From an uncultured Bacteroidales bacterium (GTDB lineage: Bacteria > Bacteroidota > Bacteroidia > Bacteroidales > UBA12077), in NCBI GenBank assembly GCA_964504155.1, contig CAZDCZ010000001.1, positions 28,451-92,450 of the forward strand: a DNA stretch of 64,000 nt. Reading direction: 5' to 3'. Below, one piece after another: positions 1 through 15,357 of this stretch. The position numbers and the translations under genes are program-made. Each line of letters starts with the position of its first letter. Within the stretch, counting starts at the first letter, position 1. The notes beneath the pieces are model-generated. The model searched no databases and was not told the origin of the DNA. It saw only the letters and a list, made by a program, of their open reading frames with translations.

Positions 1-1408
1 CTACAAATTCTAATTTTGTTTTATCGATAATTACACTTTGTTTCTTAACTAATTTATTAGTTCTAAGCTTAGCTAGTTTTGTTTTTACAATTTCTTTTCC
101 GGTAGAATTCTTATAAACAGAACGAATAATACTCTCGCATAATCCTCCCGAAACAGACAACAACATAGATGCTGTGCTTCTATTATTAAAAGGTTCGTCG
201 GCCATTTCAGGTTCTATATTATCCATACTTAGTCCGTACAATTGTATTAGTTTGGCCAATTCTCGTGTAGTAATAACTAAATCAATATCAGAAACCCCTT
301 TATATGTCATTTCTTCGCGCGATGCTTCAAATTTTTTAGCCGTACATGGCATTATAGAAACAGAAAATATTTCTTCGGGATGTAAATTCTCTTTATCTGC
401 AACACTTCTCTTTATAAGAGCTCCAAGTATTTGCTGAGGCGATTTTACTTTCGATACATACGGAATTAAATCGGGATACGATTGTTCCATATATTTAATC
501 CATGCCGGACAGTTAGAACTAATTAATGGGGTTTCCCTTTTATTTTTTATTATATCATTTAATTCAAGTGCTTGTTCGTGAATTGCAATATCTGCTCCAA
601 ATGATGAATAAAATACTTTGTCGAACCCTATTTTTTTCAATATTGCATTTAAGTATTGAGAAATATCTTTACCCGATTTCAAACCTAATTCATCTGCTAA
701 AGAAACTGATACAGAAGGAGAATACTGTGCTACTACTTTAATTTTCGGGTTATTTAATACCTCATTTAATAAATCGAAATTTGTTCTTTCGTATAATGCT
801 CCGGTAGGACAAACCAATAAACATTGTCCACAAATAATGCAATTAGAAAAATTAATATCTTTGTCCATACTTGTGGCAATAGTTGTATTATTTCCTCTAT
901 TAATAATATCTAATGCAGAGACACCAATAATTTCGTTACAAACTCTCACACAGCGTTCACATAAAATACACTTAGCTGTATCTCTAATTATTCCAAGGCT
1001 AGAATAATCGAGTTTTGCATTTGCCTTTTTTCCTGTAATTTTTCTCTCCCTAATATTTAACTCATAGGCTAGTTTCTGTAGCTCGCAATTTTGATTTTTA
1101 ATACAATAGAAACAATCGTCGGGATGATTCGAAAGCAATAATTCAACAATCATTTTTCGGGCTTTAATAACACGAGAAGAATGAGTTTTGATTTTCATCC
1201 ACCCTTCAATAGGATATGAACACGAAGGTATTAATTCTTTTTTTCCTTCGATTTCGACAACACACATTCTACAAGCCCCTGTAGGAGTAAAGCCTTCCAT
1301 ATGACACAAAGTAGGTACTTTAATTCCATTTTTGGTTAAAGCTTCGAGAATAGTTTCTCCTTTTTTTGCTTTTATTACTTCGTTATTAACTTCTATATCG
1401 ATATCCAT
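1..1408 (-). CDS. [FeFe]-hydrogenase catalytic-subunit paralog 1 (HydA-like); C-terminus cut by the window edge
   Basis: Absent from the ORF track because there is no stop in the window. My translation from the ATG at 1408 gives MDIDIEVNNEVIKAKKGETILEAL. It has an N-terminal 2Fe-2S motif (CHMEG..CRMCVVE), HPDDCFYCIKNQNC, two ferredoxin CxxCxxCxxxC(P) motifs, and the H-domain motifs SSNCPAW (506-520) and MPCTAKKFE. The L3 motif lies outside the window. Confidence 0.85.
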   Translation of the reverse strand, partial: MDIDIEVNNEVIKAKKGETILEALTKNGIKVPTLCHMEGFTPTGACRMCVVEIEGKKELIPSCSYPIEGWMKIKTHSSRVIKARKMIVELLLSNHPDDCFYCIKNQNCELQKLAYELNIRERKITGKKANAKLDYSSLGIIRDTAKCILCERCVRVCNEIIGVSALDIINRGNNTTIATSMDKDINFSNCIICGQCLLVCPTGALYERTNFDLLNEVLNNPKIKVVAQYSPSVSVSLADELGLKSGKDISQYLNAILKKIGFDKVFYSSFGADIAIHEQALELNDIIKNKRETPLISSNCPAWIKYMEQSYPDLIPYVSKVKSPQQILGALIKRSVADKENLHPEEIFSVSIMPCTAKKFEASREEMTYKGVSDIDLVITTRELAKLIQLYGLSMDNIEPEMADEPFNNRSTASMLLSVSGGLCESIIRSVYKNSTGKEIVKTKLAKLRTNKLVKKQSVIIDKTKLEFV

Positions 1409-1427
1409 ATTATTTCTATATTGAATT

Positions 1428-3368
1428 TTACATACTCAAAATAGCATTAAACTTACAGCTTTTATAACATATTCCACACCCAATACAATTATCCTGAACA
1501 ATAAAATGGGGAGCTTTTTGTGTTCCGATAATAGCCCCTGTTGGGCATTTTTTAGCACAAATAGTACAACCAATACATGCTTCTACATCAATTATAAAAG
1601 TTCTAAGTTCTTGACAAACTCCAGCCTTACATTCTCTATCGAAGATATGTTCTTCATATTCTTCTCTAAACCATTTTAATGAACTTAGAACCGGATTAGC
1701 AGCTCTTTTTCCTAAACCACACAAAGATGTTTCTTTAATTACCTCAGCTAAATTTTCTAATTGCATTACTCCCTTAAACCTGTATAAAGTTGTATGATTA
1801 TCGTTATCGACAGGTTTTTTTGTAATATTTTCTAGAATCTCACTAATTCTTCTAGTTCCTTCTCTACAAGGTATACATTTTCCGCAACTCTGATTTTTTA
1901 AAAAATCTGCAAAATATTTTACTGTATCAATAACGCAAGTATCCTCATCAAGCACTATTATTCCGCCATCGAGATTTTCCCCAATATTTTCATTTTCAAA
2001 ATCAATTATCTCATCGAGATGTTGTTCTGCAACAACTCTTCCGGTAGGTCCTCCAATATGTAAACCCTTAAATTTTTTCCCATTAAGAACTCCTCCTCCC
2101 ACTCTGAAAATAATTTCGCGCAATTTTGTTCCAAATTCAACTTCAATAATGCCACAATTTTCAACTTTCCCGGCTAACGAAAATACTTTTGTTCCTTTAC
2201 TACTATCAATACCAATGGCTCTATACCATTTGGGGCCTTTTTCAAATATCTTAGGAAGATTAATTAATGTTTCCGAATTATTAACAACTGTTGGTGCTCC
2301 AAACAAACCTTTCGTAGCAGGATATGGAGGTTTATTAATAGGCATTCCTCTTTCTCCTTCGAGAAATTTAATAAGGGCAGTTTCTTCTCCGCATACATAA
2401 GCCCCGGCACCTTTTCTTATAACAATATCAAAACTATTTCCGCTCTGAAAAACATCGTGTCCTAACAAACCATACTCTTTTGCAGAATTAATAGCTATTG
2501 TTAAACGCTCTATTGCCAATTTATTTTCCGTATCGACATAGATATATGCTTTTTTTGCTCCTATTCCATATAATGCTATTGCTATACCTTCAATTAATTT
2601 ATGAGGATCGCTTTCCATTATAAACCGTTCTGAAAAAGCTCCGGGATCTCCTTCGCCGGCATTACAAATCAAGTATTTATTATTACTATCGGTATTTATT
2701 GCTATCTTCCATTTCTTCCCTGTTAAAAATCCCTCGCCCCCTCTTCCTTTCAATTTACTTTTTTCAATAATTTCAGCCACTTCATCGCGAGTATAATTAT
2801 TCATTACCTTAACAAATGACTTATATCCACCATTAGCAATATATTCATCAATAGACTCGGGATTAATTTTTCCACAATTATTTAAAATAACTCTTTGTTG
2901 ATTAGCAAAAAAAGCTATTTCATCGATAAATGTAATTCCTTCCCATGGTTCCAGTAAATCATTTCGAAATTGTCCAAATATATATTCTAAATTAATATGT
3001 TTACTGAAAACTCCTTCAAATACTGTTTGAAAATTTTCTAAATTAATATTCTGTAAAATCAAATTTGTTTTTCCCGGAAGTTGGATTCCTATCATAGGGT
3101 CTTTCGAACACAATCCAAGAGAACCCATTTTTATTAATTCATAATTTTTAGAATCCTTTTCTAAATATTCTTCAATAGCTAAAAATAATTCTTCGATTCC
3201 TCCAATTATACTACTACTTGTATATTCAACAGAAATAACAATATCATCAACCTTATCTCTTCTAAGAAATTGAAGTTTTTCTTTGTCTTCTTTTGTATAT
3301 TCTTCTATATCTCTTAAAAGTATTCTTGAGATTAAAAATTCCTTATAATTTTCAATATCATTATTCAT
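1428..3368 (-). CDS. hydB: NuoF-like flavoprotein subunit (HydB paralog 1) with a Cys-poor thioredoxin-like N-terminal domain and a C-terminal 2x[4Fe-4S] domain
   Basis: NuoF-type motifs are present but deviant: GRGGEGFLTGKKW and CNAGEGDPGAF. The N3 cluster motif SCGKCIPCREG..CGLG is intact. The C-terminus carries CIGCTICAKKCP and CIGCGICYKSC. It lies 20 nt upstream of HydA paralog 1. Confidence 0.88.
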   Translation of the reverse strand: MNNDIENYKEFLISRILLRDIEEYTKEDKEKLQFLRRDKVDDIVISVEYTSSSIIGGIEELFLAIEEYLEKDSKNYELIKMGSLGLCSKDPMIGIQLPGKTNLILQNINLENFQTVFEGVFSKHINLEYIFGQFRNDLLEPWEGITFIDEIAFFANQQRVILNNCGKINPESIDEYIANGGYKSFVKVMNNYTRDEVAEIIEKSKLKGRGGEGFLTGKKWKIAINTDSNNKYLICNAGEGDPGAFSERFIMESDPHKLIEGIAIALYGIGAKKAYIYVDTENKLAIERLTIAINSAKEYGLLGHDVFQSGNSFDIVIRKGAGAYVCGEETALIKFLEGERGMPINKPPYPATKGLFGAPTVVNNSETLINLPKIFEKGPKWYRAIGIDSSKGTKVFSLAGKVENCGIIEVEFGTKLREIIFRVGGGVLNGKKFKGLHIGGPTGRVVAEQHLDEIIDFENENIGENLDGGIIVLDEDTCVIDTVKYFADFLKNQSCGKCIPCREGTRRISEILENITKKPVDNDNHTTLYRFKGVMQLENLAEVIKETSLCGLGKRAANPVLSSLKWFREEYEEHIFDRECKAGVCQELRTFIIDVEACIGCTICAKKCPTGAIIGTQKAPHFIVQDNCIGCGICYKSCKFNAILSM

Positions 3369-3435
3369 TTACTGTAGTCTCTTAAATTAATACAATATCT
3401 TTTGTTTAAATATTTTATTTTTTCATTACAACTAA

Positions 3436-3891
3436 CTAATTATTTATATATGAATCTATAATTTCGTTAAAACTATCAAGAGTTAAATTAGTATAATACT
3501 TATCGTTAATCGACATAACAGGCCCCATACTGCAAGCTCCCATACATTCTGTAATTTCGAGACTAAATAGATTATTTTTTGCAGTCTCTTTATCTCTTAT
3601 CTTTAGTTTTTTATATAATTCAGTAATTAATAATTTACTTTTATTAATATGACAAGTAGTCCCCTCACAAATTTTTATATGATATTTTCCTTTCGGAACA
3701 AATCGAAAATAGCTATAGAATGTAGCTAATCCGTAAATTTTACTAGTTGCAATTCCAATATATTCTCCAATCTTTTTAATTGCATCCTCCGATAAATAAC
3801 CTTGTTGTTCTTGCACATCTTGTAATATAGGAACTAGATCATCTTTTTTAACAAATGGATACTTATTAAGTATTGAATTAATATCAAACAT
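3436..3891 (-). CDS. hydC: NuoE-like [2Fe-2S] subunit (HydC paralog 1)
   Basis: Similar to the other two NuoE-like ORFs (YLSEDAI..ATFYSYF..ICEGTTCH..CMGACSMGPV). The track ORF starts at 3933. I place the start at the internal Met (MFDINS, 3891) because a -7 promoter box sits at 3931-3938. Confidence 0.85.
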   Translation of the reverse strand: MFDINSILNKYPFVKKDDLVPILQDVQEQQGYLSEDAIKKIGEYIGIATSKIYGLATFYSYFRFVPKGKYHIKICEGTTCHINKSKLLITELYKKLKIRDKETAKNNLFSLEITECMGACSMGPVMSINDKYYTNLTLDSFNEIIDSYINN

Positions 3892-3930: not shown

Positions 3931-3985
3931 CAAATATAAAATATTTTTTGTTATTTTCTAAACATTGTTATTTTAATAACATTAC
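3931..3985 (-). promoter_or_regulatory. Promoter/operator site 1: TGTTA-N6-TAACA palindrome (3966-3981), AAAAATAACAAA block and -7 box TATATTTG (3931-3938)
   Basis: Read directly from the sequence. The same architecture recurs at 16172-16225 and 24561-24613. This copy lies in the divergent region between hydC paralog 1 and the hydS operon. Confidence 0.6.
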
Positions 3986-4121: not shown

Positions 4122-4379
4122 ATGGGAAATGAATCTATAACAAAAACAGAAATAGTAATTTGCTTAGGAAGTTCTTGTTTTTCGCGAGGAAATAAAGAAA
4201 TTGTAAATATTATTAAAGCATATATTAAAGATAATCAATTAGAAGATAAAATTAATTTCCATGGTTGTCATTGTTTTAGTAAATGTAGCGAAGGACCGAT
4301 TCTAAAAGTCAACGAAAAAATACATACTGAAATATCAACTCAAAATATTCTTAATATATTAAATACAATTTCATTTTAA
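4122..4379 (+). CDS. Small thioredoxin-like [2Fe-2S] ferredoxin
   Basis: 85 aa with a CLGSSC..GCHCFSKCSEGP cysteine pattern (Cx4C...Cx3C) in a NuoE/HydC-like fold. It is the first gene of the plus-strand hydS operon. Confidence 0.65.
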   Translation: MGNESITKTEIVICLGSSCFSRGNKEIVNIIKAYIKDNQLEDKINFHGCHCFSKCSEGPILKVNEKIHTEISTQNILNILNTISF

Positions 4380-4462
4380 ATATTAATATATTAACTAACT
4401 TACAGAATATTTTTTTATAAATTTCTGTATAGCATCAATTTAAGTATCAAATAATCTTATCT

Positions 4463-6325
4463 ATGTCGATAATAAAAATAAATACTGATAAATGCGATTT
4501 AAGTTACTCGTGTGTACGAGTTTGTTCGGTAAAAGCAATTGAAATTAAAACAAATACTAATTTCGCAAGAATAATCCCTGAACGATGCATTGGTTGTGGC
4601 GACTGCTTTTCTGTTTGTCCGAATAATGCAATAGAATATATAGATTCTAAAGAAATAACAAAAGAAATATTAAAATCGGCAAGTAAAACAGTTGCCATTG
4701 TTGACCCCAGTATTTCAGGAGAATTTTCTGATATTACTGATTATAGGAAATTTGTACAAATGATACGCGAATTAGGGTTTAACTATGTAAATGAAATTTC
4801 ATTTGGAGCCGATATTATTTCGAAAAAATACAAAGATTTATTAAAAGAATTTAAAGGCAAATATTATATAACATCAGCTTGCCCGGTTGTTGTATCATAT
4901 ATTCAAAAATACAAACCCGAACTTATAAACAATCTAATTCCTTTAGTATCGCCTACGCTTGCAACTGCAATTATAGTACAAAAACTTTATGGAAAAGATA
5001 TTAAAATAATTTCTATTGGTCCATGCATAGAGAATAAAAACGACGATAAATATATAAATAACAAAGATAAAAAAATTGATGCATCAATCACATTTACAGA
5101 ATTACGCGAACTCTTTAACGAATATAATATTTCTGAAAGCAAATTAGAATATTCCGATTTTGATGCTCCTATTGGATATAAAGGCTCTCTTCTGCCTATT
5201 TCTAATGGAATTCTTCAGGCTAGCGAAATTAACGAAAATCTATTAGATGGGAATATCATTACATCGGAAGGGAAAAACAATATTAAAGATGTAACAAATC
5301 AATTTTATAAAAAAATTACTTTCATAAAAAAACATTTCAATCTATTTTTTTGTAAGGGATGTATTATGGGGCCGGGAATGTCGGCAAATGGAGAGAAATT
5401 TACCAGAAGCTCTATGGTTACTAAATATGCCCGAAAAAGATTGAAAAATTTTAACGAAAGTAAATGGCAAGAAGAAATTGACAAATATATAAATCTTGAC
5501 TACTCAACAAGTTTTTTTAACGACGACCAAAGGATTGAATCTCCTCCTAATGAAAAAATTCAAGAAGTATTAAAAGTTATAGGAAAAACAAATTCTCAAC
5601 GAGGATGTAACGCCTGCGGTTACAACACATGTAAAGAATTTGCAATTGCTGTATCGAAAGGTCTTGCAAAAACCGAAATGTGCTTAACATATGCTTTACA
5701 AAATAAACATGAATATATAGATGCTTTAAGTTTGACAAATACAAAACTTGCAAATACAAAAAAAGCACTCATTAAATCGGAACAAGAAGCAAGAAAAGAA
5801 AAAGAAATTGCCATAGAAGCATCCGAAACAGTAAATACTCTATTACAAAAACTACCTTCGGGTTTTGTAATTATAGATAATAAGCTAAAAATTATTCAAT
5901 CGAATAAAAGCTTTGTTAAACTTCTTGGCGACGAAGCAGAAGCTATAAATGAAGTAATTCCCGGACTAGAAGGTGCCGATTTAAAAACTCTTCTTCCTTA
6001 TAATATTTATACTCTTTTTAATAATGTAATATCGGAAAATAGCAATCTAAAAAATAAAGATGTTTATGTAAACAATAAACTCCTAAATCTATCGATATTT
6101 ATTATTAATAAAAACAAAACTGCAGGAGCTGTATTCAGAGATATGTATTCGCCAGAAGTACGAAAAGAAGAAGTAATTAATCGTGTTACAGATGTAATAG
6201 ATAAAAATCTGAAAATGGTACAAAAAATTGGTTTTATTCTTGGTGAAGAAGCATCGGAAACCGAACAAATGTTAAACTCGATTATTGAGTTTTACAAATC
6301 GGGAAATAATAAAAAGAAAATATAA
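4463..6325 (+). CDS. hydS: Sensory [FeFe]-hydrogenase-like protein with a PAS domain (HydS, Group C-like)
   Basis: N-terminal ferredoxin motifs (CIGCGDCFSVCP). H-domain with modified motifs TSACPVV (4871-4885), GPCIENK and FFCKGCIMGPG. An extra 4-Cys segment (CNACGYNTCKEF..C), then a coiled region and a PAS-like C-terminus (LPSGFVIIDNKLKIIQSNKSF). Confidence 0.8.
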   Translation: MSIIKINTDKCDLSYSCVRVCSVKAIEIKTNTNFARIIPERCIGCGDCFSVCPNNAIEYIDSKEITKEILKSASKTVAIVDPSISGEFSDITDYRKFVQMIRELGFNYVNEISFGADIISKKYKDLLKEFKGKYYITSACPVVVSYIQKYKPELINNLIPLVSPTLATAIIVQKLYGKDIKIISIGPCIENKNDDKYINNKDKKIDASITFTELRELFNEYNISESKLEYSDFDAPIGYKGSLLPISNGILQASEINENLLDGNIITSEGKNNIKDVTNQFYKKITFIKKHFNLFFCKGCIMGPGMSANGEKFTRSSMVTKYARKRLKNFNESKWQEEIDKYINLDYSTSFFNDDQRIESPPNEKIQEVLKVIGKTNSQRGCNACGYNTCKEFAIAVSKGLAKTEMCLTYALQNKHEYIDALSLTNTKLANTKKALIKSEQEARKEKEIAIEASETVNTLLQKLPSGFVIIDNKLKIIQSNKSFVKLLGDEAEAINEVIPGLEGADLKTLLPYNIYTLFNNVISENSNLKNKDVYVNNKLLNLSIFIINKNKTAGAVFRDMYSPEVRKEEVINRVTDVIDKNLKMVQKIGFILGEEASETEQMLNSIIEFYKSGNNKKKI

Positions 6326-6360
6326 CATCTTAGCTATTATTAAAAATATAAATAATTAAT

Positions 6361-7542
6361 ATGACAAGTCCATTTTATATAGAAATCGACTACAAACAAA
6401 AAAATCATCACAACGAAAGAATCTGTGGAGATGTAGTTCTTATAAAAAAAGTAATCGACGAAAATAGGATTATTATTATTTTATCGGATGGGATGGGACA
6501 TGGCGTTAAAGCCAATGTTTTAGCAACACTTACTTCTTCAATGGCCCTAAATTTCACAAAAGAACATAAAGACAATAATAAAATTGCTGAAATAATAACA
6601 AAAACATTACCTGTTTGCAGCCAACGAAAAATTAGCTATTCAACATTTACAATTATCGATATTGAAAAAAACGGAAAAACACATATTCTTGAATATGATA
6701 ATCCTGAAACAATAATTATTAGAAATAATAAATTATTTGCTCCAGAATGGAAATCGATAATACTAAAAAAAGAAAATTGTAGTATTGAGTTGCGTAGTTG
6801 TAGTTTTTATTCCGAAAAGGAAGATAGAATAATCTTTGGCAGCGATGGTATTACTCAGTCCGGATTGGGAAGCGACAAGTATCCTTTTGGTTGGGGAATA
6901 GATAATTTCCGTAATTACATATTCGATTTATTAAAAAATAAACCCAATATATCTGCAAATAATCTTGCCAGCAAAATTATTAATATATCGTATAAAAATG
7001 ATAACTACGAGGCAAAAGACGATATCAGTTGTGTATCTCTGTATTTCCGTAAACCTAGAAAGTTATTAATATGTACAGGACCTCCATATTTAAAAGAAAA
7101 AGATATAGAATTAGCCGAAAACGTAAGAAACTTCGATGGCAAAAAAATAATTTCCGGAGCAACGACCAGCGATATTATTGCTCGTGAGTTTAACAAAGAT
7201 ATTGAAGACACATTCGAATTTACCGATAAAGATTTACCTCCTGTATCGTATATGGAAGGAATTGATTTAATAACAGAAGGAATTCTTACCTTAAGTAAGG
7301 TAGCAAACATATTACAAGACTATGATTATAATTATGTTCCGGGGAAAGGAGCTGCCGATCAGATAATACGTTTAATAAATGAAAGCGATGAGATTCATTT
7401 TATTATTGGCACTCGAATAAATATTGCTCACCAAGACCCAAATCTTCCTATTGAATTAGAAATCCGACGGACAGTTGTTCGAAAAATAGCTGAAATCTTA
7501 GAAAAAAAATTATTGAAAGAAGTAAAAATGAAATTTATATAA
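6361..7542 (+). CDS. PP2C/SpoIIE-type serine phosphatase with an uncharacterised ~160-aa C-terminal domain
   Basis: CGDVV..LSDGMGHGVKANVLA..FGSDGITQSG..DDISCV are the hallmark metal-binding segments of SpoIIE/RsbU-type PP2C phosphatases. It lies 35 nt downstream of hydS. Confidence 0.8.
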   Translation: MTSPFYIEIDYKQKNHHNERICGDVVLIKKVIDENRIIIILSDGMGHGVKANVLATLTSSMALNFTKEHKDNNKIAEIITKTLPVCSQRKISYSTFTIIDIEKNGKTHILEYDNPETIIIRNNKLFAPEWKSIILKKENCSIELRSCSFYSEKEDRIIFGSDGITQSGLGSDKYPFGWGIDNFRNYIFDLLKNKPNISANNLASKIINISYKNDNYEAKDDISCVSLYFRKPRKLLICTGPPYLKEKDIELAENVRNFDGKKIISGATTSDIIAREFNKDIEDTFEFTDKDLPPVSYMEGIDLITEGILTLSKVANILQDYDYNYVPGKGAADQIIRLINESDEIHFIIGTRINIAHQDPNLPIELEIRRTVVRKIAEILEKKLLKEVKMKFI

Positions 7543-7788: not shown

Positions 7789-8277
7789 TTATTTATCTTC
7801 ATATTCTTTAAGGATATCTTTTACTTTTTCGGGAGAAACTCTTCCATAAGTTTTATCACCAACCATTACAACAGGAGCTAAACCACATGCTCCAACACAA
7901 CGCAAACAGCTAAGCGAGAATTTACCGTCTTCGGCTGTTTGTCCTACTTCTAAATTAAGTTGACGCTTAAACTCCTGAAGTACATTTTCAGCACCACGCA
8001 CATAACAAGCTGTACCGGTACAAATAGAAATTGGGAATCTACCTTTTGGCAACATTGTAAAGAAAGAGTAAAATGTAACTACTCCATATACTTTAGCTAC
8101 CGATACATTTTGGTTTTTAGCAACAACCTCCTGTATTTCGGCAGGAAGATATCCAAAATGCTCTTGTGTTTTATGTAGAACATTAATTAAATTTCCCGGT
8201 TTATTATCAAAAGACTTACAAATTTCTTCGATCTTTTGTACGTCTTTTTCTTTTAATTTTACTTTTATTCTAGACAT
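7789..8277 (-). CDS. hydC: NuoE-like [2Fe-2S] subunit of a bifurcating-type [FeFe]-hydrogenase (HydC paralog 2)
   Basis: CTGTACYVRG...CLRCVGACGLAPV motif. It is the last gene of the hydD-B-A-C set. Confidence 0.9.
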   Translation of the reverse strand: MSRIKVKLKEKDVQKIEEICKSFDNKPGNLINVLHKTQEHFGYLPAEIQEVVAKNQNVSVAKVYGVVTFYSFFTMLPKGRFPISICTGTACYVRGAENVLQEFKRQLNLEVGQTAEDGKFSLSCLRCVGACGLAPVVMVGDKTYGRVSPEKVKDILKEYEDK

Positions 8278-8295
8278 ATATATTATCTCCTATAA

Positions 8296-10071
8296 TTAAC
8301 TAATTTCAATTTTACTACTCTTATCGAAATATGATGTATGAAGTAAGTGATGAGATTTCTCACTCATTGGCTCACCCAAGAATTCCTCATAAAGCTTAAT
8401 TATCTCAGTATTTTCATGAGATTTTCTAATTGGTTTATTAGCATCTTCTTCGTAAATTGCTTTTGCACGAGCTTTAAGTATGCTAGAATCGCCATGGTGC
8501 AATGGCTGTCCACCACCACCAATACAACCACCCGGACATGCCATTATTTCAATAGCATGGAATTTTGATTTTCCTCTTTGTATTTCTTCTAACAATTTAC
8601 GAGCATTTCCTAAACCATGAGCAATACCAATATTAAGAGGGAAGCCATTGAAATCTATTGTAGCTTTTCTTATACCTTCAAAACCTCTAAGCTCTTTGAA
8701 ATCTAATCGGCTTAATTTTTTACCGGTATGCAATTCGTAAGCTGTTCTTGTAGCAGCTTCAATAACACCACCTGTATTTCCGAATATTACGCCTGCTCCT
8801 GATGATTCTCCCATAACTTTATCGAAATTTTCTTCAGGAAGGTTCACAAAATCGATATTTGCTTCTTTAATTAAATGAGCTAATTCTCTGGTAGAAATAG
8901 AGTAATCGACATCAGGATTTCCATCAACTTTAAACTCATCGCGTTGAGCTTCGTATTTTTTTGCTAAACAAGGCATAATAGAAACCACTACCATATCTTT
9001 TCTTTTTACTTTAATCTTATCGGCAAAATATGTTTTAGCAATAGAACCAAACATTTGCTGAGGAGAACGTGCAGTAGAAGGGATGTCTTTCATATCGGGG
9101 AAATAATGCTCGAAGAAATTTACCCAAGCAGGACAACATGATGTTAAAATAGGTAATTTAACATTTTTATCGCCATTAAGGTGTTTTGTAAGTCTATCGA
9201 GTAATTCTGTACCTTCTTCCATAATAGTAAGGTCTGCAGCAAAATCAGTATCAAGCACATGATTAAATCCTAACTGACGAAGGGCGGCAACCATTTTACC
9301 TGTAACAAGTGTTCCGGGTTTCATGCCAAACTCTTCTCCTAATGCAGCTCTAACAGCAGGAGCTGTTTGTACAACTACAGTTTTTTCAGGATTAGAAAGA
9401 GCAGAAATGACATCTCTGGTATGATCTTTTTCTGTTAATGCACCGGTAGGACAAACTGCAACACACTGTCCACAATAAGTACAAGGAGAGTCTTCTAATT
9501 TCATTTCGAAAGCCGGGCCAACCGCTACATTAAAACCTCTATTGAAAGCATTTAAGGCTCCAACTGTTTGAAAATCGTTACATACAGTCTCGCATTTACG
9601 ACACATAATACATTTATCTAAATCGCGAATTATCGATGGAGACATATCTTCTTTATATGTCGACATTTCGGCATATTCTTGACCCGGAATTTCTCTGATT
9701 CCTAATTTTATTGCCATATCCTGCAAATCGCAATTACCCGATTTTGCACATGATAAGCAATCTTTAGGATGATCGGAAAGAATAAATTCCATTACTGTTC
9801 TTCGAGCATTAATAACTCTCATGGTATGAGTTCGAATAACCATACCTTCTGCAACATCAGTAGAACACGAAGGGGCTAGATTTTTCCTTCCTTCTACCTC
9901 TACTACACAAATTCTACATCCACCCGGTTTATTTTCTATTCCAAGATCTTCTAGATTCATGTAACAAAGAATAGGAATATCTATCCCTAGTTGCTTTGCT
10001 GCTTTATATATTGTAGTACCCTTAGGAACTTCAATTTCCTTATTATCAATTGTTATTTTTACATTTTCCAT
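8296..10071 (-). CDS. hydA: [FeFe]-hydrogenase catalytic subunit, canonical (HydA paralog 2)
   Basis: All three canonical H-cluster motifs are present: TSCCPAW, MPCLAKKYE and EIMACPGGCIGGGGQP. It also has the N-terminal 2Fe-2S motif, the His-ligated 4Fe-4S motif and 2x[4Fe-4S] accessory motifs. Confidence 0.95.
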   Translation of the reverse strand: MENVKITIDNKEIEVPKGTTIYKAAKQLGIDIPILCYMNLEDLGIENKPGGCRICVVEVEGRKNLAPSCSTDVAEGMVIRTHTMRVINARRTVMEFILSDHPKDCLSCAKSGNCDLQDMAIKLGIREIPGQEYAEMSTYKEDMSPSIIRDLDKCIMCRKCETVCNDFQTVGALNAFNRGFNVAVGPAFEMKLEDSPCTYCGQCVAVCPTGALTEKDHTRDVISALSNPEKTVVVQTAPAVRAALGEEFGMKPGTLVTGKMVAALRQLGFNHVLDTDFAADLTIMEEGTELLDRLTKHLNGDKNVKLPILTSCCPAWVNFFEHYFPDMKDIPSTARSPQQMFGSIAKTYFADKIKVKRKDMVVVSIMPCLAKKYEAQRDEFKVDGNPDVDYSISTRELAHLIKEANIDFVNLPEENFDKVMGESSGAGVIFGNTGGVIEAATRTAYELHTGKKLSRLDFKELRGFEGIRKATIDFNGFPLNIGIAHGLGNARKLLEEIQRGKSKFHAIEIMACPGGCIGGGGQPLHHGDSSILKARAKAIYEEDANKPIRKSHENTEIIKLYEEFLGEPMSEKSHHLLHTSYFDKSSKIEIS

Positions 10072-10083
10072 TTTCCAACAATT

Positions 10084-11877
10084 TTATTTTATGATAATTG
10101 CATCAAATTTACATTTCTCTATACAAGCTCCACATTTAATACAAGTATTTACATCGATAAAATGAGGTTCTTTTCTTTCTCCACTAATTGCACCAACCGG
10201 ACAAACACGAGCACAAGCAGTACAACCAACGCAATTCTCTGTAATAATCTCATATCTCATTAAATCTTTACAAACTCCGGCAGGACATTTTTTATCTACA
10301 ATATGAGCAACATACTCATCGTAGAAATTATCTAATGTCGATAAAATTGGGTTTGGAGATGTTTGACCTAAACCACAAAGAGAAGTCTCTTTAATAACAT
10401 TACACATATTCTTCAATCTATCAAGGTCTTCCATCACAGCTTTTCCTTGAGTAATTCTTTCAAGAAGTTCGTATAATCTCTTATTACCAATACGGCAAGG
10501 AGAACATTTTCCGCATGATTCTTCAACAGTAAATTCCAGATAGAATTTAGCTACAGAAACCATACAATCGTCTTCGTCCATAACAATCATTCCTCCGGAA
10601 CCCATCATAGAACCTACAGAAATAAGATTATCAAAATCGATAGGAGTATCGAGATGTTTTTCTGTTAAGCATCCGCCCGATGGTCCACCTGTTTGCACAG
10701 CTTTAAATTTCTTTCCATCTTTAATACCTCCGCCAATTTCGAAAATCACTTCACGAAGAGTGGTACCCATAGGCACTTCTATCAGTCCAACATTATTAAT
10801 CTTGCCGGCAAGAGCAAAAACTTTTGTTCCTTTAGATTTCTCTGTACCAATTTTATTAAACCAATTAGCTCCTTTATTAAGAATTACAGGGATATTAGCA
10901 AATGTTTCTACATTATTTACGTTAGTAGGTTTTCCTAAATAGCCAGATTCTGCCGGATATGGAGGTTTAATAGTAGGTTCTCCTCTTTCACCTTCCATTG
11001 AATGAATAAGAGCCGTTTCTTCACCACATACAAATGCACCGGCACCATATCTCATTTCTATATCGAAATTAAAATCAGTACCAAATATTTTTTCTCCTAA
11101 CATTCCATATTCTCTGGCTTGCTCAAGAGCTATTTTAAGTCGTTTAATAGCAAGCGGATATTCAGCTCTGATATATATAAGTCCTTTGTCGGCACCCATA
11201 GAATAACCACAGATTGCCATTGCTTCTAATACAGCGTGTGGATCACCTTCTAGAATAGATCTGTCCATAAATGCACCAGGATCACCTTCATCGGCATTAC
11301 ACACAACATATTTTTGGTCGGCTTCGTTTTTCGATGCAAATTCCCATTTTAATCCTGTAGGAAATCCCCCTCCTCCACGACCACGAAGACCAGATAATTT
11401 TATTTCGTTTATTACATCCATTGGAGTCATCTCAGCTAATGCATTACCAAGAGCTAAATAACCCTCACGAGCAATATATTCTTCAATATTTTCCGGGTCG
11501 ATAAAACCACAGTTACGCAAAGCAATTCTAATTTGCTTTTTGTAAAAACCCATTTCTTTTGAGTTTTCAACATGCTTTTTAGTATTTGTATCGACATAAA
11601 GCAAACGTTCTACTTTTCTACCTTTAATAATATGTTCTTCGATAATTTCTTTTGCATCTTCGGGTTTAACTTCAGTATAAAAAGTATTATCGGGCATTAC
11701 CTTTACAATTGGTCCTTTTTCGCAAAATCCAAAGCAACCTGTTACAACAACCTGCACTTCGTCTTGAAGTCCTTTTGTTTCAAGTTCTTTATTAAGATTT
11801 TCAACAATCAAATCGCTTGAAGAAGCTTTACATCCTGTTCCTCCACATACAAGCAAATGCATTTTATATTTTGCCAT
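10084..11877 (-). CDS. hydB: NuoF-like flavoprotein subunit, full-length bifurcating type (HydB paralog 2)
   Basis: N-terminal Trx-like 2Fe-2S motif (CGGTGC..CFGFC). GRGGGGFPTGLKW, CNADEGDPGAF and SCGKCSPCR..CGLG are present. The C-terminus carries CVGCTACARVCP and CIKCGACIEKC. Confidence 0.93.
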   Translation of the reverse strand: MAKYKMHLLVCGGTGCKASSSDLIVENLNKELETKGLQDEVQVVVTGCFGFCEKGPIVKVMPDNTFYTEVKPEDAKEIIEEHIIKGRKVERLLYVDTNTKKHVENSKEMGFYKKQIRIALRNCGFIDPENIEEYIAREGYLALGNALAEMTPMDVINEIKLSGLRGRGGGGFPTGLKWEFASKNEADQKYVVCNADEGDPGAFMDRSILEGDPHAVLEAMAICGYSMGADKGLIYIRAEYPLAIKRLKIALEQAREYGMLGEKIFGTDFNFDIEMRYGAGAFVCGEETALIHSMEGERGEPTIKPPYPAESGYLGKPTNVNNVETFANIPVILNKGANWFNKIGTEKSKGTKVFALAGKINNVGLIEVPMGTTLREVIFEIGGGIKDGKKFKAVQTGGPSGGCLTEKHLDTPIDFDNLISVGSMMGSGGMIVMDEDDCMVSVAKFYLEFTVEESCGKCSPCRIGNKRLYELLERITQGKAVMEDLDRLKNMCNVIKETSLCGLGQTSPNPILSTLDNFYDEYVAHIVDKKCPAGVCKDLMRYEIITENCVGCTACARVCPVGAISGERKEPHFIDVNTCIKCGACIEKCKFDAIIIK

Positions 11878-11897
11878 ATTCTTATTTGTTTTATAAT

Positions 11898-12293
11898 TTA
11901 CTTATCGATATTTTGATAATTCTCCGGAATAATTCCTTCAACAAGTTCTCCGTTTTTAATATATTTTTCGATTATCTCATCTGCTTTTTTCACATCAACA
12001 TAACCAAAAACTATTGGGTTTTCGCCGGGTTTATGTACTTCTATAGTTGGTTCTGCAAAACAATACCCCATATCTCCAACTTGAGTAACAACAGCGTCGA
12101 TATTTCTTTTTTCGAGAGCTTCTATTAAGAAATCCATTACTTCTTTTGCTCCTGAAGCAATACCACTTGTAGCCATACCAACCTTAATTTGCACATATGA
12201 ATCAGGATGATCGGCTCTTTCTCTGATATTAACTTTCGATTGCAAATCTTCTTTCATTTTTTTTAGATCTGCTAAAGTTTTAATTTTTGCCAT
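11898..12293 (-). CDS. Small Cys-poor thioredoxin-like protein (HydD-like accessory subunit)
   Basis: 131 aa. It resembles the Trx-like ferredoxin domain, but the cluster ligands are replaced (GMATSGIASG, GDMGYCFAEP). It sits directly upstream of hydB. Confidence 0.6.
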   Translation of the reverse strand: MAKIKTLADLKKMKEDLQSKVNIRERADHPDSYVQIKVGMATSGIASGAKEVMDFLIEALEKRNIDAVVTQVGDMGYCFAEPTIEVHKPGENPIVFGYVDVKKADEIIEKYIKNGELVEGIIPENYQNIDK

Positions 12294-12330
12294 ACCTATT
12301 TTTTTATTTAAAATTACTTTGTTTTTTATT

Positions 12331-12350
12331 AAATGTAAAGTCTTACATTT
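12331..12350 (-). promoter_or_regulatory. Perfect 8-bp inverted repeat AAATGTAA-N4-TTACATTT, between the regulatory and structural halves of the operon
   Basis: Read directly from the sequence. It lies in the only sizeable gap (70 nt) of the 10-gene minus-strand operon. Confidence 0.4.
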
Positions 12351-12363
12351 TAGTCTATTATCT

Positions 12364-12906
12364 TTATTTTTCTATTTCGCTAATATTTTCATTAATCATC
12401 TCTTTAAGATACTTTCTAATTGCGGGATTGCTAATTTCCATATCTCCAAGAACAGATTTTATTTCTTTTGTATTAAATGAATATTTAGATTCATTATAAA
12501 TATGATTATAAGTAAATTCAATTTCCGGATTTGCTGCCGACAATAAAACTATTGTTCCGGCAATATCTCCAATTGGCTGTCTATCGATATTATTAAGTTC
12601 AAATTCTGCTTTTACTTCTGTTCCAAAATTTATCTCCGATTCGATTTTCAAATATCCTTTTGTTCTTTCGGCATGTTGCTTTAATAGCGCTAATCCCATT
12701 CCCACTTTCCTAGTTGTTCTTGTTGTTGAATACGGATCGGAAACTTTTTCAAGAAACTCTTTATCCATACCCTTACCATTATCAATTATTAATAGTTTTA
12801 AGATATTTTTTTCGATATTTTTTTCAACACTAATTTGAATACTATCGGCATCGGCACTGATAGAATTTTGAACAATATCTAATATATGTGATGATATATC
12901 TTTCAT
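12364..12906 (-). CDS. GHKL-type ATPase domain protein (histidine-kinase-like ATPase with no HisKA domain)
   Basis: HILDIVQNS..IIDNGKGM..GMGLALLK resemble the N, G1 and G2 boxes. An ATGA overlap with the upstream PHP gene (12903-12906) suggests translational coupling. Confidence 0.65.
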   Translation of the reverse strand: MKDISSHILDIVQNSISADADSIQISVEKNIEKNILKLLIIDNGKGMDKEFLEKVSDPYSTTRTTRKVGMGLALLKQHAERTKGYLKIESEINFGTEVKAEFELNNIDRQPIGDIAGTIVLLSAANPEIEFTYNHIYNESKYSFNTKEIKSVLGDMEISNPAIRKYLKEMINENISEIEK

Positions 12907-13646
12907 TTATTTAAAATTACTTTTCTGTTGTTTTCGCATTTTAATGCCATTCTTATTTCTTGAAAAGATATTTCTTCTATCTCGAAAAGAGAATATACCT
13001 TAGCTATATCGTCGATATAATGGGCATCCGAGCTTTGAATAAATGTTTTTCCTTTTAAGTACATATTTCTCTCGATAAAATCGGAATATTTTACATTCTT
13101 CGAAATTTCAAGAGCATCAACTTCTAAATCGGGCGGTAAAAAGCCTAAGTTTGCCAATATAGAATTGTTTACTCTATCGATATGTGCCGGAATAAATAAT
13201 CCTTGAAGTTGATGAACTTTTTTCTCTACTTCGGAAATACCAACATCCAATGCCGATATTAAAAGGTTTTCTTCTTGCTCAAGAATATTATCATATTTAT
13301 CGACAAGGCACTGATACCCAAATCTATTTACATCATTTTTTATATCTGTTATATGAGCATCGATAAATTTTTGAAACTCAAATAACTGATTATCATTTTC
13401 AAAGAACGTTAAGCAATGGACTTCTTCTTTAGTTGTAATTTCGGCACCTTTAATAACAAACACACCAAATTCGTCTCCAACTTCTTTCAATACTGCACAT
13501 TGCTTTGTGCTATTATGATCGGTAATTCCGATTATGTCAATTTTTTTTTCTTTAGCCCTTTTAATAATATTAACAGGGCTCATTTCTAAATCGCCGCAAG
13601 GCGAAAGAACAGTATGCGTATGTAAATCTGCTCTAAATAATTTCAT
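12903..13646 (-). CDS. PHP-domain metal-dependent phosphoesterase
   Basis: ADLHTHTVLSPCGD..ITDHN..PAHIDR..SDAH are PHP-family His/Asp motifs. The track start is 13676; the internal Met at 13646 (MKLFRADLHTHT) fits the family's N-terminus better. Confidence 0.75.
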   Translation of the reverse strand: MKLFRADLHTHTVLSPCGDLEMSPVNIIKRAKEKKIDIIGITDHNSTKQCAVLKEVGDEFGVFVIKGAEITTKEEVHCLTFFENDNQLFEFQKFIDAHITDIKNDVNRFGYQCLVDKYDNILEQEENLLISALDVGISEVEKKVHQLQGLFIPAHIDRVNNSILANLGFLPPDLEVDALEISKNVKYSDFIERNMYLKGKTFIQSSDAHYIDDIAKVYSLFEIEEISFQEIRMALKCENNRKVILNK

Positions 13647-13980
13647 TTTCTTTGAACAACTTATATAATTTGCCACTTATGTTAAAAGCTGTATCGTTTG
13701 AGCCTAACAATGGCAATCCTTCCATATTGCTTTGTTTAATTGTGTCGTCATCGGGTTTTACTCCATTAATAAGTATTACAGCGGCAAGATCTTTAAGCGA
13801 TGCTATTGCCATTACGTTTTTATGCGTTTGCAATGTTATCCATACTTGCTTTTCTTTTGCTCTTCCCATTACATCGCTTAAAAGATCGGAAACATAACCC
13901 CCATGAATTTCATTATCTAATCCTTCTTGTCCGCTGTAAACACTTAACCCTAACCTATTTATTATATCTAACACTTTCAT
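13633..13980 (-). CDS. DRTGG-domain protein (paralog 2)
   Basis: 115 aa and paralogous to 15776-16120 (GGYVSDLLSDVM vs NGFASDLMSDVL). I assign the DRTGG family from memory of this small-protein family. Confidence 0.55.
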   Translation of the reverse strand: MKVLDIINRLGLSVYSGQEGLDNEIHGGYVSDLLSDVMGRAKEKQVWITLQTHKNVMAIASLKDLAAVILINGVKPDDDTIKQSNMEGLPLLGSNDTAFNISGKLYKLFKENEII

Positions 13981-13995
13981 TTTCTTTGCTTTTAA

Positions 13996-15351: not shown

Positions 15352-15357
15352 AAAAAA

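What the first reader, a model, noticed from the sequence alone, without database searches (positions are those of the whole stretch)
3931..3985. Shared operator/promoter architecture upstream of all three hydrogenase operons (site 1, in a divergent promoter region)
Read 5'->3' in the direction of transcription (minus strand), the three upstream regions align:
- Site 1 (3985->3931): TAATGTTATTAAAATAACAATGTTTAGAAAATAACAAAAAATATTTTATATTTG
- Site 2 (16225->16172): AAGTGTTACTACAATAACACTGTTAAAAAAATAACAAAAAGATATTACCTTTG
- Site 3 (24613->24561): CACTGTTACGGAAATAACAGTGTGAAAAAAATAACAAATAAATCTTAAAATTG

The invariant parts are:
- A 16-bp palindrome, TGTTA-N6-TAACA, whose flanks are extended palindromically in sites 2 and 3.
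- An AAAA(A)TAACAAA block.
- A TAnnTTTG-type -7 box 26-27 nt after the palindrome.

TAnnTTTG is the established Bacteroidetes sigma-A -7 consensus. The palindrome abuts the expected -33 position.

A 5-6-5 palindrome fits two known operator classes. One is the Rex type (TTGTTAA-N4-TTAACAA in clostridial-type regulons, where hyd operons are known Rex targets). The other is the CRP/FNR type (TGTGA-N6-TCACA). The inner positions differ from the Rex consensus (TGTTAt rather than TGTTAA), so the regulator is unresolved.

Site 1 also faces the plus-strand hydS-PP2C operon, starting at 4122, so one site may control both.
Basis: partly seen in the sequence, partly recalled or inferred. Interest (0 to 1): 0.75.

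Follow-up and report, generated by a model that had tools for sequence, protein, structure and literature searches.

The report
Tandem Rex boxes at hydrogenase promoters
Each of the three [FeFe]-hydrogenase operons in this Bacteroidales-type genome is preceded by two abutting 16-bp palindromes that are very probably binding sites for the NADH-sensing repressor Rex, whose gene sits at the end of one of these operons; this is a familiar redox switch, seen here in a phylum and in a double-box layout for which I found no description.

Summary
The three quoted sequences are at the stated coordinates, and exact TGTTA-N6-TAACA occurs 4 times in the window against 0.13 expected, always in these three promoters.

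Each site is therefore a tandem pair, O1 and O2, with centres 17 bp apart. O2 lies over the expected -33 region of a Bacteroidetes-type promoter.

- 114 are named as Bacteroidota lineages.
- 111 flank hydrogenase-cluster genes.

The regulator is very probably Rex:
- The core matches the published Thermoanaerobacterium Rex consensus, TTGTTANNNNNNTAACNN.
- A rex gene lies about 4 kb beyond the window's left edge, as a distal gene of operon A.
- That synteny recurs in 4 of 4 sampled relatives.
- All 13 loci of a second Rex subfamily also sit beside hydrogenase genes, several with the tandem upstream.

The likely mechanism is that Rex occludes the promoter at low NADH/NAD+ and releases it when NADH rises, which derepresses NADH-linked H2 production.

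Verdict: a new member of a known kind. Binding, transcription start sites and shared control of the divergent hydS operon are untested.

The parts
3966..3981 (-). Site 1, distal Rex box O1 (TGTTATTAAAATAACA), perfect 5-6-5 palindrome
   Evidence: PWM 20.7, top hit in window
3949..3964 (-). Site 1, proximal Rex box O2 (TGTTTAGAAAATAACA), one mismatch; overlies the expected -33 region
   Evidence: identical O2 sequence in relative L143
3931..3938 (-). Site 1, -7 box TATATTTG; ends 18 nt after O2 and 39 nt before the ATG at 3891
   Evidence: the 16-19 nt O2-to--7 distance is the main mode in relatives (58 of 109 promoters)
1..3891 (-). Operon A within the window: NuoE-like (3436-3891), NuoF-like (1428-3368) and the start of HydA. 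It continues left of the window as HydA, a HydS::histidine-kinase fusion, RR, RR/HK and rex (207 aa, about 4.1-4.7 kb beyond window position 1), then ribF
4122..7542 (+). Divergent operon: small 2Fe-2S protein (4122-4379), PAS-containing sensory HydS-like hydrogenase (4463-6325) and PP2C/SpoIIE phosphatase (6361-7542). Control by site 1 is not shown
16206..16221 (-). Site 2, distal Rex box O1 (TGTTACTACAATAACA), perfect
16189..16204 (-). Site 2, proximal Rex box O2 (TGTTAAAAAAATAACA), perfect
16172..16179 (-). Site 2, -7 box TACCTTTG; ends 17 nt after O2
16235..16242 (-). TTTAGAAT element 13 nt upstream of site 2's O1; recurs at a fixed 13-14 nt distance in a subset of orthologous operon-B promoters; function unknown
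7789..16120 (-). Operon B: DRTGG, HATPase, HydS-like, DRTGG, PHP, HATPase, 131-aa 2Fe-2S-like protein, NuoF-like, HydA, NuoE-like
24595..24610 (-). Site 3, distal Rex box O1 (TGTTACGGAAATAACA), perfect
24578..24593 (-). Site 3, proximal Rex box O2 (TGTGAAAAAAATAACA); the left half is the canonical TGTGA Rex half-site
24561..24568 (-). Site 3, -7-like box TAAAATTG (one mismatch to TAnnTTTG), 7 nt before the ATG at 24553; assignment uncertain
21075..24553 (-). Operon C: NuoE-like (24086-24553), NuoF-like (22899-24062), HydA (21075-22865)

Best explanation
The three sites are tandem operators for the NAD(H)-sensing repressor Rex. Each consists of two 16-bp boxes (TGTTA-N6-TAACA; the proximal box also tolerates TGTTT or TGTGA) separated by 1 bp. 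At sites 1 and 2 the proximal box ends 17-18 nt upstream of the 3' end of a sigma-ABfr -7 box (TAnnTTTG). O2 therefore covers the -33 region, and O1 extends the occupied stretch to about -55.

Inferred mechanism:
1. At a low NADH/NAD+ ratio, a Rex dimer sits on each box and blocks RNA polymerase from the -33 region.
2. When NADH accumulates, Rex releases the DNA.
3. The three NuoE/NuoF/HydA-type (NADH-linked, probably electron-confurcating) [FeFe]-hydrogenase operons are derepressed, and excess reducing equivalents are disposed of as H2.
4. Because rex is a distal gene of operon A, the loop is probably autoregulated.

Shown here: the boxes, their non-random occurrence, their conservation and placement in front of hydrogenase operons across Bacteroidales, the rex gene in the same cluster, and the Rex-family membership of its product.

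Inferred only: physical binding, the NADH response, repression rather than activation, transcription start sites, and co-transcription of rex with operon A.
For: 1. Non-random occurrence in the window.
2. The genome-collection scan for the tandem returned 119 loci: 114 are named as Bacteroidota lineages and 111 directly flank hydrogenase-cluster genes.
3. In O2, the two positions the search pattern left free restore the half-site. Position 4 is T in 90% and G in 10%; position 5 is A in 68% (background T 37%, A 38%). T/G at that position is exactly the TGTTA/TGTGA alternation known for Rex.
4. The core equals the T. saccharolyticum Rex consensus TTGTTANNNNNNTAACNN. That organism has predicted sites before hfsABCD (the HydS/PP2C cluster), a PHP-domain gene, hydG and ech (PMC5886521). 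C. bescii Rex binds upstream of the Hyd [FeFe]-hydrogenase operon, hydG and rex in EMSA (PMC6391272).
5. The source contig encodes Rex about 4 kb left of the window: Pfam PF06971 + PF02629; NCBIfam NF003995 205 bits against a cut-off of 126; full-length match to solved Rex structures, E = 4.6e-34 to 2VT2; GxGxxG motif and RRD recognition-helix motif present.
6. Four of four sampled homologues of that Rex (65-69% identity, independent genomes) show the same order NuoE-NuoF-HydA-HydS::HK-RR-RR/HK-rex-ribF. All four have a box pair in the 17-bp register upstream of NuoE, and a further perfect box over the -7/TSS of the hydG maturase operon.
7. A second Rex subfamily (about 31% identical) was retrieved by protein alone. 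It sits beside hydrogenase genes in 13 of 13 metagenome loci. Boxes lie within about 330 nt upstream of rex in six loci, three of them as 17-bp tandems. It lies divergent from a boxed hydrogenase operon in L014 and L066.
8. The -7 box ends 16-19 nt after O2 in 58 of 109 oriented promoters. This matches the published -7/-33 promoter model (PMC7366714).
Against: - No binding, expression or TSS data exist for any of these organisms.
- The genome scan required the tandem, so its prevalence relative to other layouts is unknown. Less-biased hydrogenase promoters in the same loci show single boxes, or two boxes 41-42 bp apart.
- In 19 of 109 promoters the -7 box lies 35-40 nt after O2, where simple -33 occlusion would not apply. 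Some of these carry a third box over the -7 element.
- Site 3's promoter cannot be placed with confidence.
- Two Rex subfamilies are linked to the same boxes, so which protein binds is unresolved.
- No box lies directly upstream of rex in the source, so autoregulation depends on read-through from operon A across a 126-nt gap that contains a -7-like sequence.
Confidence: 0.85

Rival explanations
1. The boxes are bound by a CRP/FNR-family regulator, such as a redox-sensing Rsp/FNR-like protein, acting as a class II-type activator or a repressor. This family also recognises 5-6-5 palindromes (TGTGA-N6-TCACA).
For: - The geometry is the same 5-6-5.
- One half-site in the window is TGTGA (site 3 O2), and 10% of O2 boxes in relatives have G at that position.
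- Bacteroidota do encode redox-linked CRP/FNR proteins: HcpR, PgRsp and CrpPg in P. gingivalis (PMC12040651 abstract).
- The junction of the two boxes lies near -39, close to where class II activators sit.
Against: - Ten of the 12 half-sites in the window are TGTTA/TAACA, the Rex variant documented in Thermoanaerobacterales, not TGTGA/TCACA.
- No CRP/FNR gene was found in the roughly 84 kb of source contig examined, nor as a recurrent neighbour in the loci.
- rex, by contrast, is embedded in the cluster in the source and in 4 of 4 plus 13 of 13 protein-anchored loci.
Confidence: 0.05
2. The boxes are Rex operators, but the protein that binds them in this organism is not the cluster-encoded Rex. 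It is instead a second Rex paralogue of the 'GFIRVFSDNIAE' subfamily encoded elsewhere in the genome, or both paralogues compete for the boxes.
For: - The second subfamily is only about 31% identical to the source Rex.
- It lies immediately next to tandem boxes in L014, L066, L125, L128 and L129, and beside hydrogenase genes in 13 of 13 loci.
Against: - No member of that subfamily was seen in the roughly 84 kb of source contig examined.
- The source-type Rex is itself syntenic with boxed operon A in 4 of 4 relatives, and in L078 it lies directly behind the boxes.
- The rest of the source genome could not be searched.
Confidence: 0.12
3. The similarity of the three sites is a relic of duplication of paralogous hydrogenase operons together with their AT-rich promoters, and has no operator function.
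For: - The three operons are paralogous (NuoE/NuoF/HydA in each).
- The genome is 30.6% GC, which favours AT-rich near-repeats.
Against: - Within the three sites only the palindromic cores and the -7 box are conserved, while spacers and flanks differ.
- The same cores recur in front of orthologous and non-orthologous first genes (NuoE, DRTGG, 131-aa protein, hydG-operon leader gene, rex) in more than 100 genomes whose proteins are only 40-85% identical.
- The unconstrained O2 positions rebuild the half-site.
Confidence: 0.02

Closest known systems
Rex operators of Thermoanaerobacterales/Clostridia (TTGTTAA-N4-TTAACAA type), e.g. Thermoanaerobacterium saccharolyticum (PMC5886521)
   Same: - Identical core, TGTTA-N6-TAACA.
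- Predicted targets include the homologous hfsABCD (HydS/PP2C) cluster, a PHP-domain gene, hydG and hydrogenase structural genes.
- Same NADH-relief logic.
   Different: - The host here is a Gram-negative Bacteroidales-type organism with sigma-ABfr promoters.
- The boxes come as an abutting pair in a fixed 17-bp register positioned over the -33 region. The Firmicute sites listed are single, or far apart (adhE at -150 and -31).
- The inner spacer positions are not the A...T of the clostridial consensus.
Caldicellulosiruptor bescii Rex regulon (PMC6391272)
   Same: There, EMSA shows Rex binding upstream of the Hyd [FeFe]-hydrogenase operon, hydG and rex itself. Here, boxes precede three Hyd-type operons and, in relatives, the hydG operon, and rex lies in a boxed operon.
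   Different: - The C. bescii consensus is given as TTGTGAANNNNTTCACAA.
- rex there is autoregulated through its own site, not as the seventh gene of a hydrogenase/sensor-kinase operon.
- There is no experimental support here.
Canonical Rex/ROP system of Streptomyces, Bacillus and Staphylococcus (TTGTGAAW4TTCACAA; PMC2883068)
   Same: - Winged-helix plus Rossmann-fold repressor. The source Rex aligns end-to-end with B. subtilis Rex 2VT2.
- Inverted repeat of the same geometry.
   Different: - In S. aureus a single site per promoter is the rule, and only ldh1 has two. Here the pair is the recurrent unit.
- Half-site TGTTA rather than TGTGA.
- The targets are hydrogenases rather than ldh/adh/cyd.
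CRP/FNR-type operators (TGTGA-N6-TCACA)
   Same: 5-6-5 palindrome located around -40 of the promoter.
   Different: - The half-site sequence differs.
- No linked CRP/FNR gene.
- The linked regulator gene is rex.

Membership tests
Rex operator (ROP) / Rex regulon | Inverted repeat of Rex geometry and sequence (TTGTGAA-N4-TTCACAA, or the TTGTTA-N6-TAAC variant) | tested here: met
   Six boxes are present, four perfect TGTTA-N6-TAACA and two with one mismatch (TGTTT, TGTGA). They match the published T. saccharolyticum consensus TTGTTANNNNNNTAACNN.
Rex operator (ROP) / Rex regulon | A rex gene in the same genome | tested here: met
   The source contig ERZ27248110 k141_291850 encodes a 207-aa protein at L138 17434-18057, about 4.1-4.7 kb left of the window. 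NCBIfam Rex models are passed: NF003995 205 bits against 126, NF003996 176 against 138.
Rex operator (ROP) / Rex regulon | The regulator has an N-terminal winged-helix DNA-binding domain and a C-terminal Rossmann NAD(H)-binding domain | tested here: met
   Pfam PF06971 + PF02629. Full-length alignment to solved Rex structures 2VT2, 3KEO, 5ZZ5, 3WG9 and 3IKT, with the GIGNLG (GxGxxG) and VRRD helix motifs visible.
Rex operator (ROP) / Rex regulon | Sites lie in promoter regions of redox or fermentation genes and are conserved in related genomes | tested here: met
   111 of 119 tandem-box loci flank hydrogenase-cluster genes. Boxes are found in 4 of 4 loci anchored on the source-type Rex protein, and within about 330 nt upstream of rex in 6 of 13 loci anchored on the second subfamily.
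Rex operator (ROP) / Rex regulon | Rex binds the site and is released by NADH | not testable with these tools
   Requires EMSA, footprinting or ITC with purified protein with and without NADH/NAD+.
Rex operator (ROP) / Rex regulon | Derepression of the targets in a rex mutant or at a high NADH/NAD+ ratio | not testable with these tools
   No transcriptome or genetics exists for this uncultured organism. Perlabentimonas gracilis (L009) is a cultured candidate.
CRP/FNR-type operator | Half-sites TGTGA/TCACA (CRP) or TTGAT/ATCAA (FNR) | tested here: not met
   Only 1 of 12 half-sites in the window is TGTGA, and none is TCACA on the right side. In relatives the left half of O2 is TGTGA in 10%.
CRP/FNR-type operator | A cognate CRP/FNR gene linked to, or co-occurring with, the sites | tested here: inconclusive
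   None was found in the window or in the 10-kb extensions on each side. The rest of the genome could not be searched.
Bacteroidetes sigma-ABfr promoter | -7 element TAnnTTTG | tested here: met
   Site 1 has TATATTTG and site 2 has TACCTTTG. Site 3 has only TAAAATTG. Consensus as given in PMC7366714.
Bacteroidetes sigma-ABfr promoter | -33 element TTTG about 19-21 nt upstream of the -7 box | tested here: inconclusive
   The expected position falls inside O2, whose left half reads TGTTT/TGTTA. Some relatives have TGTTTG there. No clean TTTG is present at the three window sites.
Bacteroidetes sigma-ABfr promoter | A transcription start a few nt downstream of the -7 box | not testable with these tools
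   Needs 5'-RACE or dRNA-seq.

The most novel reading that the evidence does not exclude
The abutting double box (cores 1 bp apart, centres 17 bp apart, so roughly opposite faces of the helix) is an obligate unit. It would bind two Rex dimers cooperatively, a dimer-of-dimers mode not described for Rex, and give a steep, switch-like response to NADH.

Because rex is co-encoded in operon A with a sensory-hydrogenase::histidine-kinase fusion and two response-regulator proteins, the same promoters may integrate H2 partial pressure (through the HydS kinase/phosphatase modules) with the NADH/NAD+ ratio (through Rex). That would make this a combined H2/redox control circuit specific to anaerobic Bacteroidales.
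Probability: 0.2. Interest if true: 0.6.

Novelty: new member of a known kind. Interest (0 to 1): 0.4.

Why it matters
- Uncultured anaerobic Bacteroidales are abundant fermenters in sediments, digesters and guts. This result gives a concrete, testable rule for when they switch on H2 production: a rising NADH/NAD+ ratio sensed by Rex.
- It extends the Rex-hydrogenase circuit from Firmicutes and Thermotogae to Bacteroidota.
- It supplies a sharp motif for annotating Rex regulons in hundreds of MAGs: hydrogenase structural operons, the hydG maturase operon, rex itself, and occasional V-ATPase and gdh genes.
- It offers a compact NADH-responsive operator matched to Bacteroidetes -33/-7 promoters, which could serve as a genetic part.
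- The fixed 17-bp double box is a defined system for asking whether Rex dimers cooperate.

Tried and rejected
- **Regulator inside the window.** Pfam scans of about 45 ORFs found no Rex, CRP/FNR or other DNA-binding regulator near the sites. The rex gene appeared only after walking 10 kb beyond the left edge. The right-hand extension added nothing relevant.
- **Other targets in the window.** The acyl-CoA dehydrogenase/etfAB operon (30352-34045), a plausible Rex target, has no box upstream. Neither do the Ldh_2 and SDR genes at 61635-63520.
- **RNA element.** Rfam finds only five tRNAs in the window and nothing at the sites. The boxes lie upstream of the -7 box at sites 1 and 2, so they are not transcribed in the main direction.
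- **Unbiased test of the 17-bp spacing.** This was only partly possible, because the pattern-derived loci are ascertained for the tandem. The secondary promoters in them are few and show single or 41-42-bp-spaced boxes. I therefore do not claim that the tandem is universal.
- **Literature.** Four full-text searches found no paper on Rex in Bacteroidales/Bacteroidota or on their hydrogenase promoters. A fifth, on cooperative binding at two Rex sites, found nothing. Ravcheev et al. 2012 is not held, and RegPrecise could not be consulted. From memory, that study did not include Bacteroidetes.
- **Source genome in the genome collection.** It was not among the 119 listed loci. The nearest relatives are 60-85% identical at protein level, so no species name can be given.
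- **'TATTTAGAAT' as a gene end.** I considered whether this upstream element was the end of a neighbouring gene. In the window it lies in a divergent intergenic region, so it is not.

Full report
**1. The observation**

- Exact TGTTA-N6-TAACA occurs four times in the 64-kb window against 0.13 expected from dinucleotide-preserving shuffles, and none of 100 shuffles reached four. All four lie in these three upstream regions.
- A 35-nt pattern covering the shared architecture matches only the three sites, with zero expected.
- Allowing one mismatch gives 14 hits against 5.75 expected. Six are in the three promoters and the other eight are all inside genes.
- In a position-weight-matrix scan, five of the six boxes are the top five window hits and the sixth ranks seventh. 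No other intergenic candidate appears.

**2. Re-parsing the anatomy**

- site 1: TGTTT-AGAAAA-TAACA
- site 2: TGTTA-AAAAAA-TAACA
- site 3: TGTGA-AAAAAA-TAACA

Each site is therefore a tandem pair, distal O1 and proximal O2, with centres 17 bp apart. Window coordinates:

| Site | O1 | O2 | -7 box | Distance, O2 end to -7 box end |
|---|---|---|---|---|
| 1 | 3966-3981 | 3949-3964 | TATATTTG, 3931-3938 | 18 nt |
| 2 | 16206-16221 | 16189-16204 | TACCTTTG, 16172-16179 | 17 nt |
| 3 | 24595-24610 | 24578-24593 | TAAAATTG, 24561-24568 | 17 nt |

The Bacteroides promoter model has TAnnTTTG at -7 and TTTG near -33 (PMC7366714). On that model O2 sits over the -33 region and O1 extends to about -55.

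The implied 5' UTRs at sites 1 and 2 are about 30-45 nt, which is ordinary for Bacteroides. Site 3 is different. Its box is only a near-match, it ends 7 nt before the ATG, and orthologous promoters do not conserve it. I leave that promoter unplaced.

**3. Gene context**

- Site 1 precedes a NuoE-like/NuoF-like/HydA operon (operon A).
- Site 2 precedes a ten-gene operon (operon B): DRTGG, HATPase, HydS-like, DRTGG, PHP, HATPase, 2Fe-2S-like protein, NuoF, HydA, NuoE.
- Site 3 precedes NuoE-NuoF-HydA (operon C).
- Divergent from site 1 lies a small 2Fe-2S protein, a PAS-containing HydS-like sensory hydrogenase and a PP2C phosphatase.
- Peptidase S46, Omp85, the promoter type and the nearest relatives all mark the organism as Bacteroidales-like, at 30.6% GC.
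- It is known only from metagenome assemblies.

**4. Comparative evidence**

I scanned one genome for each of 185,579 species for TGTTA-N6-TAACA-N-TGT-N8-TAACA.
- 114 are titled as Bacteroidota lineages. One is a cultured isolate, Perlabentimonas gracilis.
- An ORF and BLAST analysis found a hydrogenase-cluster gene or rex as the first downstream gene at 101 loci. tblastn rescued ten more, giving 111 of 119.
- First genes, counted per promoter, were: A-type NuoE (47), the operon-B DRTGG gene (26), the 131-aa 2Fe-2S-like gene (18), the small 2Fe-2S/hydS leader gene (8), C-type NuoE (7), HydA-like (2), HydS (1) and rex (2).
- The eight exceptions include a V-ATPase subunit E-like gene (twice) and glutamate dehydrogenase.

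The two O2 positions that the pattern left free rebuild the half-site. Position 4 is T in 90% and G in 10%, and position 5 is A in 68%, against a background of about 37-38%. This signal is independent of the search design, and T/G at that position is the TGTTA/TGTGA alternation known for Rex boxes.

The -7 box ends 16-19 nt after O2 in 58 of 109 oriented promoters. A second mode at 35-40 nt accounts for 19, and 22 have none within 70 nt.

**5. Identity of the regulator**

*Sequence class.* The core is the Rex consensus reported for Thermoanaerobacterium saccharolyticum, TTGTTANNNNNNTAACNN. Predicted sites there precede hfsABCD (the homologous HydS/PP2C cluster), a PHP-domain gene, hydG and ech (PMC5886521). 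The general Rex consensus is TTGTGAANNNNTTCACAA. C. bescii Rex binds upstream of its Hyd [FeFe]-hydrogenase operon, hydG and rex (PMC6391272).

*Rex in the source genome.* Walking 10 kb beyond the window on the source contig showed that operon A continues as HydA, a HydS-like::HisKA-HATPase fusion, a receiver-only response regulator, an RR/HK hybrid, a 207-aa protein with PF06971 + PF02629, and then ribF. The 207-aa protein:
- passes NCBIfam Rex models (205 bits against a cut-off of 126);
- aligns end-to-end with solved Rex structures (2VT2, E = 4.6e-34), with the GxGxxG and RRD motifs in place.

It lies about 4.1-4.7 kb left of window position 1, on the operon-A strand.

*Recurrence.* This Rex has thousands of homologues, and the closest are annotated as Rex of Bacteroidales. 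Four sampled at 65-69% identity, from independent assemblies, show:
- the same gene order, with rex 30-42 nt (overlapping in one) behind the RR/HK gene;
- a box pair in the 17-bp register upstream of NuoE, one with a degenerate O2;
- a single perfect box overlapping the -7/TSS region of the TM1266-like-hydG maturase operon.

*A second Rex subfamily.* It is about 31% identical to the source Rex and passes NCBIfam NF003996 at 218.7 bits against a cut-off of 138. In L014 and L066 it lies divergent from a boxed hydrogenase operon. When retrieved by protein alone from metagenomes, it sits beside hydrogenase genes in 13 of 13 loci. Boxes lie within about 330 nt upstream in six, three of them as 17-bp tandems.

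*The CRP/FNR alternative.* No CRP/FNR gene appeared in the roughly 84 kb of source contig examined.

**6. Mechanism (inferred)**

1. At a low NADH/NAD+ ratio, Rex dimers occupy O1 and O2 and exclude sigma-ABfr RNA polymerase from the -33 region.
2. NADH binding releases Rex.
3. The NADH-linked hydrogenases are then made, and they reoxidise NADH (with reduced ferredoxin) to H2.
4. Because rex is distal in operon A, its own synthesis would rise on derepression, a negative feedback.

This is the logic established for Rex elsewhere. Here it rests on sequence and synteny only. Two things complicate simple occlusion. First, there is the class of promoters whose -7 box lies 35-40 nt after O2. Several of these carry a third box in which the -7 element is embedded: TGT+TAnnTTTG+TAACA, for example L029 and L060. 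Second, site 3's promoter is unplaced.

**7. The divergent hydS operon**

The layout NuoE operon <- boxes -> small 2Fe-2S/hydS recurs in 41 loci. The boxes lie mostly within about 100 nt of the NuoE start (33 of 41) but mostly 175-290 nt from the first hydS-side gene. In the window the only plus-strand -7-like box, TAATTTTG at 4055-4062, is 74 nt beyond O1. The boxes therefore belong to the NuoE-side promoter. Shared control is possible but not supported.

**8. Limits**

Counts are therefore lower bounds, and the share of tandem against other layouts is unknown.
- Less-biased promoters in the same loci show single boxes, or pairs 41-42 bp apart.
- Which of the two Rex subfamilies binds is open.
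- Nothing here measures binding, transcription or NADH response.

**9. Comparison and novelty**

Rex repression of [FeFe]-hydrogenase operons, Rex boxes of the TGTTA type, and rex autoregulation are all known in Firmicutes. New elements here are:
- the phylum: no paper on Rex in Bacteroidales/Bacteroidota was found in four full-text searches;
- the fit of the operator to -33/-7 promoters;
- the recurrent abutting double box, whereas single sites are the norm in S. aureus;
- rex embedded behind a sensory-hydrogenase kinase module.

I rate it a new member of a known kind, with moderate interest.

Noticed in passing
window 16235-16242 (minus strand), 13 nt upstream of site 2 O1; also L010, L016, L024, L028, L060, L087, L095, L100, L113 and others: A conserved TTTAGAAT, often TATTTAGAAT-N3-4-TATAAAT (an imperfect inverted repeat ATTTAnAAT-N-ATTnTAAAT). 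It sits at a fixed 13-14 nt upstream of O1 in 8 of 44 operon-B-type promoters exactly (0.006 expected per promoter), and in more with one mismatch. It is nearly absent from A-type promoters (1 of 46, at a different distance). It may be the site of a second regulator.
   Followed up: partly
L138 13689-15683 (source contig, about 0.3-2.3 kb left of window position 1); same gene in L142-L145: A 660-665-aa fusion of a HydS-like sensory [FeFe]-hydrogenase domain (Fe_hyd_lg_C + FeS) to HisKA-HATPase. It is followed by a receiver-only response regulator and an RR/HK hybrid, then rex. This looks like an H2-sensing phosphorelay with no DNA-binding output encoded nearby except Rex.
   Followed up: no
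L142 16264, L143 15423, L144 15465, L145 14787: A single perfect Rex box overlaps the 3' end of the -7 box (TATCTTTG|TTAAC...) of the TM1266-like-(TonB receptor)-hydG maturase operon in 4 of 4 relatives. This extends the predicted regulon to hydrogenase maturation, as in C. bescii and T. saccharolyticum.
   Followed up: partly
L142-L145, about 75 nt upstream of the TM1266-like gene (e.g. L143 15445-15520): A highly conserved leader (TTTACTCTTnCTGAGAAACGGATACGTTTCTGTTTCAAGGTTAAAGAATAAATCTAATCCGGAGGAAATCTG-ATG) containing a 7-bp hairpin, AGAAACG-GATA-CGTTTCT. It has no Rfam match at E <= 1 and may be a cis-regulatory RNA.
   Followed up: partly
L029 3737, L060 6613, L057; near-matches in L042 and L108: A third Rex box with a perfect -7 element embedded in it (TGT+TAnnTTTG+TAACA, e.g. 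TGTTATCTTTGTAACA). It occurs mainly in promoters whose -7 box lies 35-40 nt after O2.
   Followed up: partly
L066 6775-7428, L014 4830-4222, L125-L137: Two Rex subfamilies, only about 31% identical, are both genomically tied to hydrogenase clusters and to the same boxes. The second often heads its own rex-NuoE-NuoF-HydA-like operon, divergent from a DRTGG operon.
   Followed up: partly
L012 2790, L047 6506, L038 2847: Tandem boxes lie upstream of non-hydrogenase genes in a few Bacteroidales MAGs: a V-type ATPase subunit E-like gene (twice) and glutamate dehydrogenase. These are possible peripheral regulon members.
   Followed up: partly
L114 85-134 (Sedimentisphaerales MAG) and L086 5022 (Clostridium MAG): L114 has three abutting boxes in a row in a Planctomycetota genome, and L086 has a perfect tandem in a Clostridium MAG. 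Neither has hydrogenase genes within 8 kb. This suggests that abutting Rex-type boxes are not strictly confined to Bacteroidota.
   Followed up: no
window 16649-20956 (+): A 1029-aa multi-PAS hybrid histidine kinase and a 394-aa RR-HK protein lie between operons B and C, divergent from site 2. They add to the unusually dense signalling content of this hydrogenase supercluster.
   Followed up: no
L077 (titled Thiohalospira sp. MAG): This contig carries Bacteroidales-type hydrogenase genes (61-66% identical to the window's) and the tandem boxes. It is probably a mis-binned Bacteroidales contig.
   Followed up: no
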